Below, in pieces: positions 24,439 through 35,696 of a DNA stretch of 64,000 nucleotides. This stretch comes from Deltaproteobacteria bacterium (lineage in GTDB: Bacteria > Desulfobacterota > Syntrophia > Syntrophales > UBA2192), in contig JAAYEC010000015.1 of NCBI GenBank assembly GCA_012728915.1, positions 23,082-87,081 of the forward strand, given 5' to 3'. Within the stretch, counting starts at the first letter, position 1; each line of letters begins with the position of its first letter. Made by a program: the position numbers and the translations under genes. The notes beneath the pieces were generated by a model that worked only from the letters and a program-made list of their open reading frames with translations, was not told the DNA's origin and ran no database searches.

Positions 24439-24972
24439 TTACTTGCGGGCCTTCTTTGCCCCGGACTTTGCCTTGCGTTTCGAGGCAACTGTTTCCAGTT
24501 CGCTCTCGAGGCGGATCACCTTCCTGAGCTCGGCGAACAGGATCTTGTTCTTGGGCCGATCGGCGATGTCGTGGATGTCGATGTAGCGGATGATCCCGTA
24601 CTTGTCGAGCACGAAGATCGCCCGCTCCGAGAATCCTTCCTTGCGCTTCACGCCGTACTTCTTCGCGACGGCCGCCTGCGGAGAAAAATCGCTCAGCAGC
24701 GGGAAGGAGATCCCGCCCAGACTTTCCGCCCATGCCTTCAGGCAGGGGATATGATCGACGCTGATGCCCAGGACCTGGGCATTGAGCCCCGCGAACTTGG
24801 CCGTCTCGGCCTCGTACGAGGGCAGCTGGTTCGTTCAGACCGGCGTCCAGGCAAGGGGGAAGAACGCGATGACAACGGGACCCCGGCCGAGGCATTTTTT
24901 GAGAGTCACTCTTCTGTCGAGGTGACTCGGCAGGGTGAAGTTGGGGGCTTTCTGCCCGACCTTCAGCTTCAT
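24439..24972 (-). CDS. Peroxiredoxin (AhpC/TSA family) with an in-frame TGA (24835-24837, complement) at the peroxidatic Cys position; candidate selenoprotein
   Basis: MKLKVGQKAPNFTLP...VVIAFFPLAWTPV-[TGA]-TNQLPSYEAETAKFAGLNAQVLGISVDH...ERAIFVLDKYGIIRY. The two track ORFs 24835..25176 and 24439..24651 are in the same frame. Confidence 0.7.
24799..24823 (-). promoter_or_regulatory. Hairpin-capable sequence downstream of the peroxiredoxin UGA (candidate SECIS)
   Basis: On the mRNA strand two overlapping hairpins are possible. GCCCU-CGUACG-AGGC begins 12 nt after the UGA, and GGCCG-AGA-CGGCC begins 24 nt after it. Confidence 0.3.
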
Positions 24973-32214: not shown

Positions 32215-33116
32215 TCAGACACCGATCTTCTTGATCTGCAGTTTCGAGAGGTCCATGACCCCGAGGCCCGCATTCGCGGCGAGTCTCACGCTGCCGATGT
32301 CGCTGCCCTTCATCCCGAACAGCGTCGCCCCGAAGGAATCGACAGCCACCTGGTCCGTGCCCGCGACAACGGTGTCGAGACGCTTCACGTCGCTGAGATC
32401 GCCCCCGGTGGGGCCGTTGGCCGTGAGGATGCGAACGGCGTCCAGCACGGTGAGCGCCGGCCTGATGACCCGGACGAGATCGACAAGGCTCTCATCGAGG
32501 CGCTGATGGACGCGGAACCGCGCGCCCCCCATGATGCCCATCCAGTTCTTCATGCCCAGGGTAAGCCCCGACAGGCCGTGGGTCTTGGCGACGGGGACGT
32601 TGATGACCTTGTCCGCCTCGAAGATCTCGCCGTAGAGGGGCCAGGACTTCAGGGCCTTTCCATCGAGTCTGACGTCCCGGTACTTGCGGCCGTCCATGTA
32701 GACCATCTCGGCCCCCGCCGTGGCTGCCGCATCGGCGATCCCGCTCTGCCTGTAGCAGCGCCTCGCGTCGTTCACGGGATTGTCGAGGATCCGGACCTTT
32801 TTCGCCCCCGCCTCGTAGCACAGCTTCGCCAGGGCGCCGACGACATCGGGATTGGTGGTGGCGGCGTACTGCGGGGCGCGGTCCCACCCGATGTTGGGCT
32901 TCAGGACGACGACGTCGCCCGCGGCAACGAAACGTTTCATCCCCCCAGGGCATCCAGGGCCGCACGCACAATTTGCGGGGTCGAGGTCCCCCGGACCACG
33001 ACCAGATCGGGCCCCCGGGCCGCGTGCGCCATGCGGCCCAGCGCGGCAAGGCCGCAGGGCAGCGCCAGCCCCGCCGAGGAAAGGGCCGTCCACTTCAGGA
33101 AATCGCGTCTCTTCAT
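32215..33116 (-). CDS. Tat-exported DUF362 domain protein; the reading frame is broken by a 1-nt shift at a G6 run (32941-32946)
   Basis: The Tat signal is MKRRDFLKWTALSSAGLALPCGLAALGRMAHA. The N-terminal frame ends ...AALDALGG-TGA at 32937-32939. The family continues in the next frame as MKRFVAAGDVVVLKPNIGW...VPVAKTHGLSGLTLGMKNWMG. Confidence 0.7.
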
Positions 33117-33286
33117 CCGGCACCTCAACGGATTGCTGCCTGGGTAAATACCACAACCGGCAGGCCGGGACAAACCGAAAGGGAAGCCGCGTTCTGTCCG
33201 GGCCGGACACCTGCGGGGGAATTTTTATGTGGATTTTGGCCTCCCGAGCCATTACTATACTATCACACTGATAAGGAGGTCCGTCC

Positions 33287-33595
33287 ATGAAATCAAGATC
33301 CCTCGGCCTCGTGGCGATCCTGGCGGCGCTTGCCGTCCTGATCGTCGCCTCGCCCGTCCTGGCAAAGGAACGGGTCGTCCAGCTTTCCCTGCCGGACTGC
33401 TCCTGACCCTTCACCCGCGAGAGGGTCAGTTGGACCGTCGAAAACATCGCAAAGGCGTCCGTCGTGGATATCAACGAGTACACCCACATAGCGGTTGTAA
33501 AGTTCGACGACGAGAAAACGACCGTCGAAAAGATCGTCGATTCCCTCGAGAAGGCGGGGTTCCCCCTGTCGGGACCGCCCAAATTCCTGAAGTAG
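33287..33595 (+). CDS. Exported HMA-fold (heavy-metal-associated-like) protein with in-frame TGA (33404-33406) in a C-S-U motif; candidate selenoprotein, absent from the ORF track
   Basis: An AAGGAGG RBS is present. The signal peptide is MKSRSLGLVAILAALAVLIVASPVLA. The mature part reads KERVVQLSLPDCS-[TGA]-PFTRERVSWTVENIAKASVVDINEYTHIAVVKFDDEKTTVEKIVDSLEKAGFPL. This gives a beta-alpha-beta-beta-alpha-beta pattern with the motif at the CxxC position. Confidence 0.6.
33403..33436 (+). promoter_or_regulatory. Hairpins at and after the UGA of the HMA-like gene (candidate SECIS)
   Basis: CUGACCCU-11 nt-AGGGUCAG is a perfect 8-bp stem that includes the UGA. The alternative GGUC-AGUUG-GACC places its loop 24-28 nt after the UGA. 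Confidence 0.35.
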
Positions 33596-33609
33596 TGGAC
33601 CGGTTAGCC

Positions 33610-33646
33610 GGGGCGGCGGCCCCGAGAGGGTCACCGCCCCTTTTTT
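33610..33646 (+). terminator. Intrinsic terminator after the HMA-like gene
   Basis: GGGGCGG-17 nt-CCGCCCC, followed by TTTTTT. Confidence 0.7.
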
Positions 33647-33713: not shown

Positions 33714-33956
33714 ATGGAAAGTTCCACGAGAGAAAGATACCTCCGCACCCTGATGCGATACCAGGAACAACACGGCCGGGAGAAGGCCTCGGCCATCCAG
33801 GAAAGATTCTGGAAAGACCGGGAGCGGGTCGTCTCGGAAAGCGCGGAGGAAATCGACTGGTTTCCTTCCTGGAAAAAGAACCAGGTCCTCGAGTCCCTGC
33901 TCGAGAAAACTTACAGGGATCTCATCCGTGAAATGGAGCTCGAGGGCCTGCCCTGA
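33714..33956 (+). CDS. Hypothetical protein (80 aa)
   Basis: The ORF begins with ATG and has plausible codon usage. No family was recognised. Confidence 0.45.
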   Translation: MESSTRERYLRTLMRYQEQHGREKASAIQERFWKDRERVVSESAEEIDWFPSWKKNQVLESLLEKTYRDLIREMELEGLP

Positions 33957-34070
33957 ACGCCCCCGTTGCGTAAAGGCGCGATGGCGATCCGGATGACGAT
34001 CCCCTTCAACGCTCGACGGCCGACGGGGGGCCGGCCGTTCACCGGCCCTCCGGGGCCGCGGGAGGTCATC

Positions 34071-35696
34071 ATGGAGTTCAACGTGCTCATCGGCGGGGAG
34101 GCCGGCCAGGGGATGTTCTCCGTGGAGCTGCAGCTCTCGGAGATGCTCTCCCGGCTGGGGTATCCCTTTTTCGCGACAAAGAACTACATGTCGCGGATCC
34201 GCGGCGGCCACAATTTCCACATGATCCGGATCGCCGAGAAGCCTGTCCATGCCCTCAGCGGGAAACCCTGGGACCTGATCGTCGCCATGGACCGGGCCGA
34301 GACGGAGCGCCGGCACAAGCCCTTCCTCCGGGAGGGAGGCCCCTTCATCGGGCCGGAACGCGTCGGACAGATCGAAAGGGAAGCGAAGGGGGAACTGCAG
34401 GACGTAACGGCAACGAGCGTCATCCTGACCGGCCTGATCCTCGCCTTCATCGGGGCGGATGACGCCGCGGCGCAGTCGGCGGCGCCCGACGGGACGGCGC
34501 GGAAGGCGCTGGCGATGGGATGGGACTTCGCCGCCCGCTGGGGGCTGGCGGCCCGAAGGTCCTTCGCCCCGCAGATCGGCGAGCACTGCAAGCTCGACGG
34601 GAACCAGGCCCTCGCCCTCGGGGCTCTACTGGGAGGATGCCAGTTCGTGGCCGGCTACCCCATGACGCCCGCCACTTCGATCCTGCACTACTTCTCCTCC
34701 GTCGCGGAAGAGCTGCCCGTTCATTTCGAACAGGCCGAGGACGAGATCGCCGCCCTGAACATGGCCCTGGGGGCCTCCTATGCGGGGCTCCGGTCCATGG
34801 TGGCCACCTCGGGCGGGGGCTTTGCCCTCATGACCGAAGCCGTCTCGCTGGCCGGGATGACGGAGACACCGGTCGTCATCATCGTCGCCCAGCGGCCCGG
34901 ACCGGCCACGGGACTTCCTACGAGGACCGAGCAGGGCGACCTGAACTTCGTCCTGCACGCCGGGCACGGCGAATTCCCCCGGGTCCTCTTCGCACCGGGA
35001 TCCATTGAAGAGGCCATATCACTGGCGCGCAGGGCCTTCGATGTTGCCGACCGCTGGCAGATCCCCGTGTTCATCCTGACGGACCAGTACCTGGCCGACT
35101 CCCTGCAGATCATGGAAGGACGCGTACCCACCAAGATGCTCAAACGGGACTTGCCCGTTGCCGGGGCGGACTACCGGCGCTACGAGATCACGGACTCCGG
35201 GGTCTCGCCCCTGACCTATCCCGGGCTCTCCGAGGCCCGCGTCGAAGTGGATTCCGACGAGCACACGGAAGACGGCAAGATCACGGAAGATCGCGGGATG
35301 AGGGTCCGGATGGTCGACAAGAGACTCCGGAAATTCGAGGGTCTCCGGAAGGAAGCGGTCATGCCGGCCCGTTTCGGAGACCGGAGGGCACCCACCGTCC
35401 TCGTCTCGTGGGGATCGAACCGACTGATCGTGAACGAGGCCGTCGAGGTGCTTCGGGCCGAAGGGATTTCCGTGTCATCGGCCCACTTCGGCCAGGTCTA
35501 CCCGCTCACCCCGCAGATGGCGCGTGGTCTTGCGCGCAAGCGGCTGATCTGCATCGAAAACAATGCCACGGGGCAGTTCGAACAGTTGCTCCGCCACGAA
35601 TTGGGCCTGAAGGCGACCCATCGGATCCTGAAATACGACGGCGAATGCTTCACCGTGGGAGAACTGGTGGAACGGGTCAAGGGAATTCTGGGTTGA
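34071..35696 (+). CDS. korA: 2-oxoacid:ferredoxin oxidoreductase, fused gamma-alpha subunit
   Basis: The gamma domain shows IGGEAGQGMFSVELQLSEML...RIRGGHNFHMIRI. The alpha domain shows GNQALALGALLGGCQFVAGYPMTPATSI. A GGGAGG RBS is present. Confidence 0.85.
   Translation: MEFNVLIGGEAGQGMFSVELQLSEMLSRLGYPFFATKNYMSRIRGGHNFHMIRIAEKPVHALSGKPWDLIVAMDRAETERRHKPFLREGGPFIGPERVGQIEREAKGELQDVTATSVILTGLILAFIGADDAAAQSAAPDGTARKALAMGWDFAARWGLAARRSFAPQIGEHCKLDGNQALALGALLGGCQFVAGYPMTPATSILHYFSSVAEELPVHFEQAEDEIAALNMALGASYAGLRSMVATSGGGFALMTEAVSLAGMTETPVVIIVAQRPGPATGLPTRTEQGDLNFVLHAGHGEFPRVLFAPGSIEEAISLARRAFDVADRWQIPVFILTDQYLADSLQIMEGRVPTKMLKRDLPVAGADYRRYEITDSGVSPLTYPGLSEARVEVDSDEHTEDGKITEDRGMRVRMVDKRLRKFEGLRKEAVMPARFGDRRAPTVLVSWGSNRLIVNEAVEVLRAEGISVSSAHFGQVYPLTPQMARGLARKRLICIENNATGQFEQLLRHELGLKATHRILKYDGECFTVGELVERVKGILG

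What the first reader, a model, noticed from the sequence alone, without database searches (positions are those of the whole stretch)
33287..33595. Unannotated periplasmic HMA-fold protein with a C-S-U motif (in-frame TGA) and its own terminator
Seen in sequence. A strong AAGGAGG RBS and ATG 33287 open a 102-codon frame that the ORF track misses, because TGA 33404-33406 splits it into pieces below the size cutoff. Read through, the frame gives a signal peptide followed by a ferredoxin-like beta-alpha-beta-beta-alpha-beta pattern. The sequence is VVQLSLPDCS-U-PFTRERV...IAVVKFDDEKTTVEKIVDSLEKAGF. This is the heavy-metal-associated (MerP/CopZ-type) layout, with the TGA at the metal-binding loop where CxxC normally sits. 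An 8-bp perfect stem (CUGACCCU/AGGGUCAG) includes the UGA. An alternative GGUC-AGUUG-GACC hairpin follows it. A clean intrinsic terminator (33610-33646) closes the unit. The gene is transcribed divergently from the Tat-DUF362/polyferredoxin operon. The C-x-U spacing differs from the canonical CxxC and suggests a selenosulfide redox or metal/selenium-binding site in the periplasm.
Basis: partly seen in the sequence, partly recalled or inferred. Interest (0 to 1): 0.78.

Follow-up and report, generated by a model that had tools for sequence, protein, structure and literature searches.

The report
Secreted MerP-like selenoprotein gene, unannotated
A small gene that databases cut in two at a TGA "stop" most likely encodes one exported, MerP-like metal-binding-fold protein in which the TGA is read as selenocysteine; it represents an uncatalogued selenoprotein family of anaerobic bacteria.

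Summary
ATG 33287 to TAG 33595 is one 102-codon gene with an AAGGAGG ribosome-binding site, an in-frame TGA (33404-33406) and an intrinsic terminator (33610-33646).

The TGA is very probably decoded as selenocysteine:
- Fifteen loci carry a TGA in this loop. The nine close Syntrophales orthologues have it at the identical codon.
- Both flanks evolve as coding sequence in one frame.
- Relatives have Cys at that column (CxC and CxxC forms).
- A 7-bp, 5-nt-loop hairpin lies 14 nt after the UGA (33421-33439). Its pairs covary strongly: 97% paired, 5 of 7 pairs compensatory.

The window also holds a peroxiredoxin gene with TGA at its peroxidatic position, and TGA is the window's commonest true stop.

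An orthologue models confidently as signal peptide plus a beta-alpha-beta-beta-alpha-beta fold. Its best structural match is MerP (1osd). Cys38 and Sec40 sit in the metal-binding loop.

No curated family reaches its cut-off, and a 2026 compilation of prokaryotic selenoprotein families lists nothing like it. Public records call a 43-aa fragment.

Function is inferred: periplasmic soft-metal binding, or possibly selenosulfide redox. Some relatives sit next to secreted thioredoxin-fold selenoproteins.

The parts
33229..33258 (+). Promoter-like block conserved with the gene: GTGGATTTTG (-35-like TGGATT at 33230-33235), 17 nt, then TACTAT (33253-33258)
   Evidence: The upstream alignment of 9 loci shows invariant T.GTGGATTTTG and TA..AT positions, even though the upstream gene differs between loci. 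The sigma-70 consensus scan found nothing here, so promoter function is inferred.
33273..33279 (+). Shine-Dalgarno sequence AAGGAGG, 7 nt before the start codon
   Evidence: Read directly from the sequence. It is invariant in all 9 close orthologues.
33287..33364 (+). Start codon and Sec-type signal peptide (codons 1-26, MKSRSLGLVAILAALAVLIVASPVLA), with predicted cleavage before KERVV
   Evidence: Sequence features are positive K2/R4, a hydrophobic core and V-L-A at positions -3 to -1. A[ML]A-KERVVQ is conserved in orthologues. The model shows an N-terminal helix at 3-24 ahead of the domain. The MerP HMM alignment spans residues 10-94. Cleavage is inferred; no signal-peptide predictor was available.
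33365..33592 (+). Mature 76-residue HMA/MerP-like domain (K27-K102), including the family-specific C-terminal tail G-P-P-K-F-L-K
   Evidence: AlphaFold model of orthologue P0001: beta1 28-34, loop 35-40, alpha1 41-53, beta2 59-63, beta3 68-74, alpha2 80-89, beta4 99-100. Foldseek against the PDB gives MerP, Ccc2a, Atx1 and CopZ. A PDB sequence search gives MerP at E 1.5e-7.
33398..33406 (+). Active-site codons TGC-TCC-TGA, giving Cys38-Ser39-Sec40; the TGA is at 33404-33406
   Evidence: The TGA is at the same codon in window and L001-L008. It sits at C-x-U or C-x-x-U in the six more distant Sec-form loci L009, L010, L011, L013, L015, L016 (L014 and L017 are near-duplicates of L013 and L016). 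Cys occupies the same column in CxC/CxxC relatives.
33421..33439 (+). Bacterial SECIS-like hairpin: 5' arm GAGGGUC (33421-33427), loop AGUUG (33428-33432), 3' arm GACCGUC (33433-33439). It has one G.G mismatch and starts 14 nt after the UGA
   Evidence: The same 7-bp stem and 5-nt loop (R-G-K-U-N) is present in all 15 Sec-form loci. Pair count: 97.4% paired, 5 of 7 pairs with compensatory changes, 0 of 500 shuffles as high, slid controls at most 48%. The covariance model gives a unique 30.6-bit hit in the window.
33403..33429 (+). Alternative 8-bp stem CUGACCCU/AGGGUCAG that includes the UGA; it is mutually exclusive with the SECIS 5' arm
   Evidence: It is present in the window's minimum-free-energy fold. 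It shows no covariation and is absent from Smithella. Its role, if any, is unknown.
33593..33595 (+). True stop codon TAG
   Evidence: All orthologues stop at the same position.
33610..33646 (+). Intrinsic terminator: GGGGCGG-C-GGCCC-CGAGA-GGGUC-A-CCGCCCC followed by UUUUUU
   Evidence: Fold (centroid -26.7 kcal/mol, followed by a U6 tract). The stability z-score is only -0.97 in this G+C-rich context, and the consensus scanner did not list it.

Best explanation
Window 33229-33646 is a self-contained transcription unit: a conserved promoter-like block, a strong Shine-Dalgarno sequence, a 102-codon ORF and an intrinsic terminator. It encodes a small exported selenoprotein.

Proposed steps:
1. 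During translation, UGA 33404 is read as selenocysteine. The hairpin at 33421-33439, with its AGUUG loop 14 nt downstream, would recruit SelB carrying Sec-tRNA(Sec).
2. The 26-residue signal peptide sends the chain through the Sec translocon and is cleaved before KERVV.
3. The 76-residue mature protein folds as a MerP-like HMA (ferredoxin-like beta-alpha-beta-beta-alpha-beta) domain.
4. Cys38 and Sec40 lie in the beta1-alpha1 loop, at the N-terminus of helix 1, where MerP and CopZ carry CxxC.
5. I commit to this function: the thiolate/selenolate pair binds a thiophilic metal ion in the periplasm (Hg(II)/Cu(I)/Cd(II) class) and buffers it or hands it on. Sec would give a lower pKa and higher affinity in a sulfidic, anaerobic habitat.
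6. The site can also close as a Cys-Sec selenosulfide. In some relatives it is probably kept reduced by adjacent secreted thioredoxin-fold (seleno)proteins.

Shown here: the gene structure, the conservation of the TGA, the Sec/Cys pairs, hairpin covariation, the fold, and the neighbourhoods. Inferred: actual Sec insertion, signal-peptide cleavage, which metal is bound, and the redox partnership.

My probabilities: about 0.93 that it is a genuine selenoprotein, and about 0.55-0.6 that its main role is metal binding.
For: Gene and recoding:
- The in-frame TGA is at the identical codon in 9 orthologues of 64-97% amino-acid identity, from independent MAGs and metagenomes. It is in the same loop in six more distant Sec-form loci at about 30-37% identity.
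- Substitutions pile up at third codon positions on both sides of the TGA in one frame: 98/34/178 before and 362/248/943 after.
- Identical sequence occurs in independent assemblies, so a sequencing error is excluded.
- TGA is the commonest true stop in the window (18 of 34 long ORFs), so the code is not reassigned.
- Cys forms occupy the same column: eight cluster representatives with CxC, of which P0013 (C-D-C-P) and P0027 (C-T-C-G) were confirmed to translate normally, and two with CxxC.

SECIS:
- A 7-bp stem with a 5-nt loop lies at a fixed distance in 15 of 15 loci, with different stem sequences. 97.4% of cells pair, 5 of 7 pairs carry compensatory changes, and 0 of 500 shuffles reach the observed score.

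Sec use in this genome:
- Window 24439-24972(-) is an AhpC/TSA gene (118 bits) with TGA at the peroxidatic position. The identical NCBI record calls it full length.
- Syntrophus aciditrophicus is documented with 19 selenoproteins (PMC1794560).

Fold:
- pLDDT 84.7. MerP 1osd is the top hit (E 3.8e-6, TM 0.85, rmsd 1.5 A, 31% identity), followed by Ccc2a, Atx1, GolB and CopZ.
- MerP HMM E 8.6e-13. The VTFDDxKT...AG[FY]P signature is shared with MerP.

Redox-partner hint:
- A secreted Sec-peroxiredoxin lies immediately upstream in L001, L002 and L004.
- A secreted U-A-V-C redoxin lies upstream in L016 and L017.
- A thioredoxin gene overlaps the Cys form in L012.
Against: - There is no direct evidence of Se incorporation or of metal binding.
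- No selA, selB, selC or selD was seen in the window (no tRNA at all), and the rest of the genome could not be read.
- The window's own hairpin has a G.G mismatch (6 of 7 pairs), the only internal mismatch among the 15 loci.
- The local fold energy is not better than shuffled sequence.
- The protein misses the Pfam HMA gathering score (24.1 against 24.8), and only its C-terminal half aligns. It also misses the MerP cut-off (48.6 against 92.55).
- The canonical GMxCxxC motif is absent. One-residue C-x-U spacing is not the classic linear bis-thiolate geometry.
- No mer, cop or P-type ATPase genes are nearby, and the neighbourhood is not conserved across the family.
- Some family members lack both Cys and Sec in the loop, so metal binding cannot be universal in the family.
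Confidence: 0.6

Rival explanations
1. It is the same selenoprotein, but the HMA scaffold has been repurposed as a periplasmic redox shuttle. Cys38 and Sec40 would cycle between the reduced form and an intramolecular selenosulfide. The protein would donate electrons to, or resolve, secreted thioredoxin-fold enzymes such as the Cys-free 1-Sec peroxiredoxin encoded next to it in some genomes. Metal binding would not be its job.
For: - Thioredoxin-fold genes lie immediately upstream, on the same strand, in three independent contexts.
- The L001 secreted Sec-Prx has no other Cys in its mature sequence, so it needs an external reductant.
- CxC/CxU spacing and Sec are typical of redox motifs in published selenoprotein tables (PMC13188914).
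- MerP itself can form the Cys14-Cys17 disulfide (the 1osd entry is 'oxidized MerP').
- No metal-homeostasis genes are nearby.
Against: - The window, L003, L005-L008 and Smithella lack any thioredoxin-fold neighbour.
- Even where the genes are adjacent, the HMA-like gene keeps its own promoter-like block.
- To my knowledge, no HMA-fold protein is known as a dedicated oxidoreductase.
- MerP-type signatures (TFDDxKT, AG[FY]P) are retained.
Confidence: 0.3
2. The TGA is a real stop. The locus would encode a 39-residue peptide (essentially a signal peptide) and, separately or not at all, a 43-residue ORF starting at GTG 33464, as public annotations show.
For: Gene callers split it this way. TGA is the commonest stop codon in this genome.
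Against: - Codons 41-59, between the TGA and GTG 33464, are conserved as protein (PFTR[ED]RVSWT), and codons 41-102 as a whole show third-position bias.
- I see no Shine-Dalgarno-like sequence directly before the GTG.
- Full-length Cys forms exist.
- The two halves together make one compact domain.
- A covarying hairpin lies at the SECIS distance.
Confidence: 0.04
3. The TGA is read through as Trp or another standard amino acid (an alternative code or leaky stop), or the gene is a decaying pseudogene or assembly artefact.
For: JGI and ENA gene callers printed W at this position.
Against: - Every tested W is a TGA translated under code 4 on a short contig.
- The genome has 64% G+C and uses TGA as a normal stop.
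- No relative has TGG at this column; relatives have Cys.
- The TGA is fixed across loci of 30-97% identity and across independent assemblies, which is incompatible with a pseudogene or sequencing error.
Confidence: 0.03

Closest known systems
MerP, periplasmic mercury-binding protein (TIGR02052; structures 1osd, 1afi)
   Same: - A signal peptide followed by a single HMA domain of about 72-76 residues.
- Best structural match (TM 0.85, rmsd 1.5 A, 31% identity) and best sequence match.
- Shared VTFDDxKT...AG[YF]P signature.
- The reactive residues sit in the beta1-alpha1 loop.
- U-P-F-T can be aligned with MerP's Cys17-P-I-T.
   Different: - Scores 48.6 bits against a cut-off of 92.55.
- C-S-U replaces GMTCxxC: one residue shorter, no Gly-Met, and Sec in place of one Cys.
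- Has an extra C-terminal tail, G-x-P-x-[FYW]-[LIV]-[KN].
- No merR, merT or merA genes nearby.
- Found in strictly anaerobic Syntrophales.
NF041115 'UxxU metal-binding (seleno)protein' ('putative mercuric reductase' in selenoproteome tables)
   Same: A stand-alone HMA-type domain in which Sec replaces the metal-ligand Cys residues. The kind 'HMA selenoprotein' is therefore already known (PMC13188914).
   Different: - Only 19.3 bits against a cut-off of 95.
- That family's motif is UxxU (two Sec), against C-x-U (one Sec) here.
- The model is 74 positions long and matches only residues 39-92 of this protein, so it does not cover the signal peptide or the C-terminal tail.
NF045683 MerT/CopZ fusion-like selenoprotein, MerT-type 'putative mercuric transport' selenoproteins, and Sec-containing P-type ATPase HMA domains (UxxC)
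   Same: Selenoproteins of heavy-metal handling that use an HMA or MerT metal site (PMC9312934; PMC13188914; bioRxiv 10.1101/2022.07.06.499078).
   Different: - Those are membrane or fusion proteins.
- The score here is 20.5 bits against a cut-off of 375.
- The Sec position and spacing differ.
CopZ / Atx1 copper chaperones
   Same: The same fold, with the ligands in the same loop. JGI names some orthologues 'copper chaperone CopZ'.
   Different: - Those are cytoplasmic proteins with MxCxxC.
- Similarity is weak (22-23 bits).
- No CopA or CsoR context here.
'Mercuric transport protein MerP' selenoprotein listed in the 2008 GOS selenoproteome (PMC2398784)
   Same: Only the name.
   Different: That entry is a 33-residue read fragment, HHARTSAPAGTUCQSGVQ..., with a U-C motif and no resemblance to this family.

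Membership tests
Bacterial selenoprotein (UGA decoded as Sec) | An in-frame UGA conserved at the same position among orthologues, with coding conservation on both sides | tested here: met
   Nine of nine close loci have it at the identical codon, and six more distant Sec-form loci have it in the same loop. Third-position bias is seen on both sides.
Bacterial selenoprotein (UGA decoded as Sec) | Homologues with Cys aligned to the Sec position | tested here: met
   CxC forms are P0007, P0013, P0021, P0023, P0026, P0027, P0035 and P0058. CxxC forms are P0012 and P0038. P0013 and P0027 translate normally from their DNA.
Bacterial selenoprotein (UGA decoded as Sec) | A bacterial SECIS: a stem-loop shortly downstream of the UGA with G/U in the apical loop (definition recalled from the fdhF and bSECISearch literature) | tested here: met
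   The hairpin at 33421-33439 has loop AGUUG, 21 nt from the UGA to the loop. It covaries across 15 loci. No Rfam model exists to test against.
Bacterial selenoprotein (UGA decoded as Sec) | Sec machinery (selA, selB, selC, selD) in the same genome | tested here: inconclusive
   There is no tRNA in the window and the rest of the MAG could not be read. Indirect support comes from a second TGA-containing gene (peroxiredoxin, 24439-24972 on the minus strand) that NCBI's record calls full length, and from documented Sec use in a cultured relative, Syntrophus aciditrophicus (PMC1794560).
Bacterial selenoprotein (UGA decoded as Sec) | Selenium demonstrated in the protein | not testable with these tools
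   This needs 75Se labelling or mass spectrometry.
HMA domain (Pfam PF00403) | Score at or above the Pfam gathering threshold | tested here: not met
   24.1 bits against 24.8, aligned only over residues 55-92. Twenty of 29 family members match at E<1e-3.
HMA domain (Pfam PF00403) | A beta-alpha-beta-beta-alpha-beta ferredoxin-like fold that superposes on solved HMA domains | tested here: met
   Model of the orthologue: pLDDT 84.7. The top 37 PDB matches are all HMA proteins.
HMA domain (Pfam PF00403) | The G-M-x-C-x-x-C metal-binding motif in the beta1-alpha1 loop | tested here: not met
   The loop reads L-P-D-C-S-U-P. Two chalcogen ligands are in the right loop, but with one-residue spacing and no Gly-Met.
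MerP (TIGR02052 equivalog) | Score at or above the curated cut-off | tested here: not met
   48.6 bits against 92.55. The ten further family members scanned individually score 28.9-61.9 bits.
MerP (TIGR02052 equivalog) | A signal peptide plus a single HMA domain | tested here: met
   Cleavage of the signal peptide is inferred from sequence features.
MerP (TIGR02052 equivalog) | A mer operon context (merR, merT, merA) | tested here: not met
   The neighbours are DUF362, a polyferredoxin, 2-oxoacid:ferredoxin oxidoreductase, a Vut_1 transporter and others. No GMxCxxC or HgcA motif occurs anywhere in the window.
NF041115 UxxU metal-binding selenoprotein | Score at or above the cut-off, with a UxxU motif | tested here: not met
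   19.3 bits against 95, and the motif is C-x-U.
NF045683 MerT/CopZ fusion-like selenoprotein | Score at or above the cut-off, with the MerT membrane part present | tested here: not met
   20.5 bits against 375, aligned only to the CopZ-like end of the model (142-228 of 235). The protein has 102 residues.

The most novel reading that the evidence does not exclude
The family is not a metal chaperone at all. It would be the electron-carrying partner of an all-selenium periplasmic redox relay in strict anaerobes. In this reading an HMA scaffold carrying a Cys-x-Sec selenosulfide recycles secreted 1-Sec peroxiredoxins and UxxC redoxins that have no other reductant in the periplasm. That would be a new role for the HMA fold and a new extracytoplasmic antioxidant or thiol-redox pathway.
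Probability: 0.2. Interest if true: 0.72.

Novelty: new variant of a known kind. Interest (0 to 1): 0.5.

Why it matters
- **Catalogue.** It adds a family to the prokaryotic selenoproteome that curated resources miss. No NCBIfam or Pfam model reaches its cut-off, and a 2026 compilation of prokaryotic selenoprotein families lists nothing like it.
- **Annotation.** The exact 43-aa C-terminal fragment of this gene is indexed in 470 blocks of the assembly collection. It is annotated there as a 43-aa hypothetical protein, or as 'CopZ' with a spurious Trp. A family model would correct these records.
- **Biology.** It places a selenolate in the classic MerP/CopZ metal site of an exported protein, with an unusual one-residue C-x-U spacing. 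Matched Cys forms (CxC, CxxC) exist, giving a natural series for asking what Sec contributes to metal affinity or redox potential outside the cytoplasm.
- **Testable link.** Its recurrent adjacency to secreted Sec-peroxiredoxin and UxxC redoxin genes suggests a connection between periplasmic thiol/selenol redox chemistry and metal handling in syntrophic anaerobes. That link can be tested directly.

Tried and rejected
- **Rfam.** Neither the gathering-threshold scan of the whole window nor a permissive scan of 33380-33480 found anything relevant. No Rfam family matched this hairpin at either threshold.
- **UGA-containing 8-bp stem as the SECIS.** Rejected. It shows no covariation and is absent in Smithella.
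- **Fold energy as evidence.** The z-scores are uninformative in this 64% G+C context.
- **Sigma-70 and terminator consensus scan.** It found no promoter and did not list the terminator on the + strand.
- **DUF362/polyferredoxin as a functional partner.** Rejected. The linkage is synteny among close Syntrophales only.
- **The GOS 2008 'MerP selenoprotein' as prior description.** Rejected. It is an unrelated 33-aa fragment.
- **ExtJ (selenite/tellurite operon protein).** One of 29 family members gave a weak hit (E 7.4e-5). It was not among the ten members rescanned, and I did not pursue it further.
- **Other selenoprotein genes in the window.** A covariance model of the hairpin gave weaker hits, but none follows an in-frame TGA in a coding frame.
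  - The U-to-C window protein could not be submitted to the exhaustive search or to structure prediction, so I used fragments and orthologue P0001 instead.
  - The AlphaFold-DB Foldseek library was unavailable.
  - My regex tally of loop motifs was unreliable; the counts I give were read by eye.
Full report
**1. What is in the sequence**

- The ribosome-binding site AAGGAGG is at 33273-33279, and ATG is at 33287.
- A single in-frame TGA lies at 33404-33406, and the frame ends at TAG 33593-33595.
- The product reads MKSRSLGLVAILAALAVLIVASPVLA|KERVVQLSLPDCS-U-PFTRERVSWTVENIAKASVVDINEYTHIAVVKFDDEKTTVEKIVDSLEKAGFPLSGPPKFLK.
- Mechanical ORF calling yields only a 39-aa and a 43-aa piece.
- The terminator is real. 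Positions 33610-33640 fold into an interrupted 12-bp G+C-rich stem (centroid -26.7 kcal/mol), followed by U6. The simple scanner did not list it on the + strand.
- The 8-bp stem that includes the UGA is present.

**2. One gene, conserved through the TGA**

- A word-indexed search with U replaced by C found two 102-aa proteins of 65-66% identity carrying 'W' at the Sec column. Their DNA has TGA there, so the W comes from code-4 gene calling on short contigs.
- A scan of one genome per species found eight more loci, all Syntrophaceae or Smithella MAGs.
- The window and L001-L008 all read LP[DN]C[SE]-TGA-PFTR[ED]RVSWT. Two Smithella loci read IPGCSA-TGA-NTKARM.
- Among the nine close orthologues, substitutions concentrate at third codon positions on both sides of the TGA in one frame: 98/34/178 before and 362/248/943 after.
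- Window 23464-43595 is 100% identical to NCBI record DAOSGD010000003.1 (GCA_035364355.1) and 99.9% identical to two ENA assemblies, so the TGA is not a sequencing error.
- Those records call the gene as 39 aa plus 43 aa, or only 43 aa. GenBank members of the 43-aa cluster are named 'hypothetical protein [Syntrophales bacterium]'; JGI names them 'copper chaperone CopZ'.
- TGA is also the commonest genuine stop in the window (18 of 34 long high-GC3 ORFs). This excludes a reassigned genetic code.

**3. The recoding signal**

- The nucleotides after the TGA are unusually invariant.
- Every Sec-form locus has a 7-bp stem with a 5-nt loop (consensus R-G-K-U-N) starting 14 nt after the UGA, or 11 nt in Smithella. 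This holds for the window clade, Smithella, and the distant members L011, L013, L015 and L016.
- The stem sequences differ widely: GAGGGUC/GACCCUC, UAGGGUA/UAUCCUG, CAGUAUA/UAUACUG, GACGAUA/UGUCGUC and others.
- On the in-register alignment, 97.4% of cells pair and 5 of 7 pairs show compensatory changes (18 cells). None of 500 shuffles reaches the observed score, and slid controls pair at 48% or less (the smaller set is).
- Caveat: I set the register by hand, including the 3-nt shift for Smithella.
- In the window the hairpin is 33421-33427 / 33428-33432 (AGUUG) / 33433-33439, with one G.G mismatch.
- From my knowledge of the fdhF SECIS and the bSECISearch criteria, this distance and a G/U-containing apical loop are what SelB-dependent recoding requires.
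It competes with the 5' arm of the real hairpin.
- A covariance model of the hairpin hits the window once at 30.6 bits; the next hit scores 14.9 bits. None of the weaker hits follows an in-frame TGA.

**4. Does this organism use Sec?**

- No tRNA and no Sec-machinery gene were seen in the 64 kb, and I could not read the rest of the MAG.
- Indirect evidence is good. Window 24439-24972(-) is an AhpC/TSA peroxiredoxin (118 bits) reading ...FFPLAWTPV-TGA-TNQLP..., with the TGA at the peroxidatic Cys position. The identical NCBI record calls it as a full 177-aa protein.
- Related contigs encode further TGA-containing thioredoxin-fold genes.
- Syntrophus aciditrophicus has 19 reported selenoproteins (PMC1794560).

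**5. Fold and family**

- With U replaced by C, the protein scores 24.1 bits on Pfam HMA (cut-off 24.8), aligned over its C-terminal half only. It scores 48.6 bits on MerP TIGR02052 (cut-off 92.55).
- It scores only 19-23 bits on CopZ models and on the known HMA-type selenoprotein models NF041115 (UxxU) and NF045683 (MerT/CopZ fusion).
- An AlphaFold model of orthologue P0001, built with a 28-sequence family alignment, is confident (pLDDT 84.7). It shows a signal helix at 3-24, beta1 28-34, loop 35-40 (Cys38, Sec40), alpha1 41-53, beta2, beta3, alpha2 and beta4.
- Foldseek's best PDB match is MerP 1osd (E 3.8e-6, TM 0.85, rmsd 1.5 A, 31% identity). Next come HMA7, Ccc2a, Atx1, TM0320, GolB and CopZ.
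- The sequence alignment to MerP is ambiguous by one register. Either Sec40 aligns with Cys14, or Cys38 aligns with Cys14 and Sec40-P-F-T aligns with Cys17-P-I-T. In both cases the Sec lies in the metal-binding loop at the N-terminus of helix 1.

**6. A wider, uncatalogued family**

- An exhaustive profile search of 1.84 billion cluster representatives gave 98 hits at E<=1e-3.
- Besides true MerPs, there is a coherent set of proteins of about 100 aa. They share a signal peptide, (V)P.C in the loop, TFDDxKT, and a distinctive C-terminal G-x-P-x-[FYW]-[LIV]-[KN].
- Read by eye, the loop motifs are:

| Loop motif | Number of cluster representatives |
|---|---|
| C-x-'W' | 9 |
| C-x-x-'W' | 5 |
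| C-x-C | 8 |
| C-x-x-C | 2 |

- A few members have no Cys in the loop. At least 16 hits are fragments ending or starting at the TGA.
- Every 'W' I checked is a TGA followed by the hairpin: P0001, P0002, P0006, P0008, P0009 and P0014. The Cys forms P0013 (C-D-C-P) and P0027 (C-T-C-G) translate normally.
- All 29 aligned members hit the MerP model. The ten further members scanned individually scored 28.9-61.9 bits, below the 92.55 cut-off.

**7. Transcription unit and neighbourhood**

- A promoter-like block travels with the gene even where the upstream gene differs: GTGGATTTTG, 17 nt, then TA(C/A)(T/A/G)AT (window 33229-33258).
- Together with the terminator, this makes the gene a monocistronic unit.
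- In the window and in L003-L006, the gene lies between a divergent DUF362 plus polyferredoxin pair and a 2-oxoacid:ferredoxin oxidoreductase. L003-L008 additionally have a 429-aa 4Fe-4S protein gene upstream that the window lacks.
- This arrangement is synteny by descent. Smithella (between maf and a mannose-1-P guanylyltransferase-like gene, by my reading of the ORFs), P0038 (two-component system), P0117 (between two formate dehydrogenases) and P0027 have unrelated neighbours.
- The one recurring theme is an upstream, same-strand, exported thioredoxin-fold gene:
  - a signal-peptide Sec-peroxiredoxin (FFPAAYTP[TV]-TGA) in L001, L002 and L004;
  - a signal-anchored U-A-V-C redoxin in L016 and L017;
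  - an overlapping thioredoxin (WCPYS) for the Cys form in L012.

**8. Mechanism and rivals**

- Best supported: an exported MerP-like selenoprotein whose Cys38/Sec40 pair binds a thiophilic metal in the periplasm. The site can close as a selenosulfide and may be kept reduced by thioredoxin-fold partners. This is analogous to TlpA-type reductants of copper chaperones, an analogy I draw from memory and did not test.
- The main rival keeps the selenoprotein but makes it a redox shuttle for those partners. It is favoured by the Cys-free 1-Sec peroxiredoxin neighbour and by the absence of metal genes. It is disfavoured by the many loci without such partners and by the retained MerP signatures.
- A real stop, Trp read-through, a pseudogene or a sequencing error are each contradicted by several independent results (sections 2, 3 and 6).

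**9. Comparison with what is known**

- HMA- or MerT-type selenoproteins are already in the literature and in NCBIfam: the UxxU metal-binding protein NF041115, UxxC P-type ATPases, MerT C/SxxU, and the MerT/CopZ fusion (PMC9312934; PMC13188914; bioRxiv 10.1101/2022.07.06.499078). The general idea is therefore not new.
- This family differs in four ways. It is secreted and stand-alone. It has a single Sec with C-x-U or C-x-x-U spacing. It has its own C-terminal tail. It falls below every curated cut-off.
- I found it neither in the 2026 compilation nor in NCBI's annotation of the very record that matches the window.
- The 2008 GOS 'MerP selenoprotein' is an unrelated 33-aa fragment.
- I therefore rate it a new variant of a known kind, of moderate interest.

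**10. Caveats**

- Sec insertion, signal cleavage and function are all inferred.
- The modelled protein is a 65%-identical orthologue with Trp at the Sec position.
- The window's hairpin carries one mismatch.
- The Sec machinery was not located.

Noticed in passing
window 24439-24972 (- strand); TGA at 24837-24835: This is a peroxiredoxin (AhpC/TSA, 118 bits) with an in-frame TGA at the peroxidatic Cys position (...FFPLAWTPV-U-TNQLP...). It has no signal peptide and an AAAGGAG ribosome-binding site. ENA gene calls split it into 70 aa plus 45 aa, whereas the identical NCBI record calls it as 177 aa.
   Followed up: partly
window 32215-33116 (- strand); G-run at about 32941-32945: The divergent 'Tat-DUF362' gene is frameshifted in this genome. 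A 1-nt deletion in a G-run, relative to five orthologues, separates the 59-aa twin-arginine signal part (32937-33116) from the 241-aa DUF362 part (32215-32940). The two overlap at ATGA. Three independent assemblies show the same split. Possible readings are a pseudogene, a homopolymer sequencing error, or a domain now made without its export signal.
   Followed up: partly
L001 59-595; L002 710-1207; L004 9401-9934: This is a secreted peroxiredoxin with TGA at the peroxidatic position (FFPAAYTP[TV]-U-[TA]GEM) and no Cys in the mature L001 sequence. It lies 60-65 nt upstream of the HMA-like selenoprotein gene in two lineages of the window's clade, and it is absent from the window.
   Followed up: partly
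L016 153-773; L017 511-1086: This is a signal-anchored thioredoxin/TlpA-like protein with an in-frame TGA in a U-A-V-C motif (...EFSNST-U-AVCQ...). It lies upstream, on the same strand, of a distant C-V-U member of the family. Its TGA is followed by a CCUGU-AGUUA-ACAGG hairpin.
   Followed up: no
L003 8590-9879 (also L004-L008): A 429-aa protein with a 4Fe-4S dicluster domain sits between the DUF362 gene and the HMA-like gene in related MAGs. It is missing from the window, where the intergenic gap is only 170 bp.
   Followed up: no
window 33714-33956 (+): This 80-aa ORF has no Pfam match. It is conserved in six syntenic loci directly upstream of the 2-oxoacid:ferredoxin oxidoreductase alpha/gamma gene (33966-35696). 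It may be a small subunit of that enzyme.
   Followed up: no
L019 6001-6306; L020; L021: A Cys form of the family (C-R-P-C, P0117) lies between an FdnGHI-like formate dehydrogenase and a NAD-type formate dehydrogenase alpha subunit, next to a 326-aa DUF5018-like protein and LysR-type regulators.
   Followed up: no
Proteins P0001, P0002, P0006, P0008, P0009, P0014 and their neighbours on short contigs: Metagenome gene callers (JGI, ENA) translated TGA as Trp on short contigs that carry selenoprotein genes. This produced full-length 'proteins' with a spurious W at the Sec position. These records are a useful handle for finding selenoproteins, and also a source of wrong sequences in protein databases.
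   Followed up: yes
Alignment A6, one member (not identified): One family member gave a weak match (E 7.4e-5) to NCBIfam NF040942, 'selenite/tellurite reduction operon protein ExtJ'. This hints that ExtJ may be a related small periplasmic HMA-like protein.
   Followed up: partly
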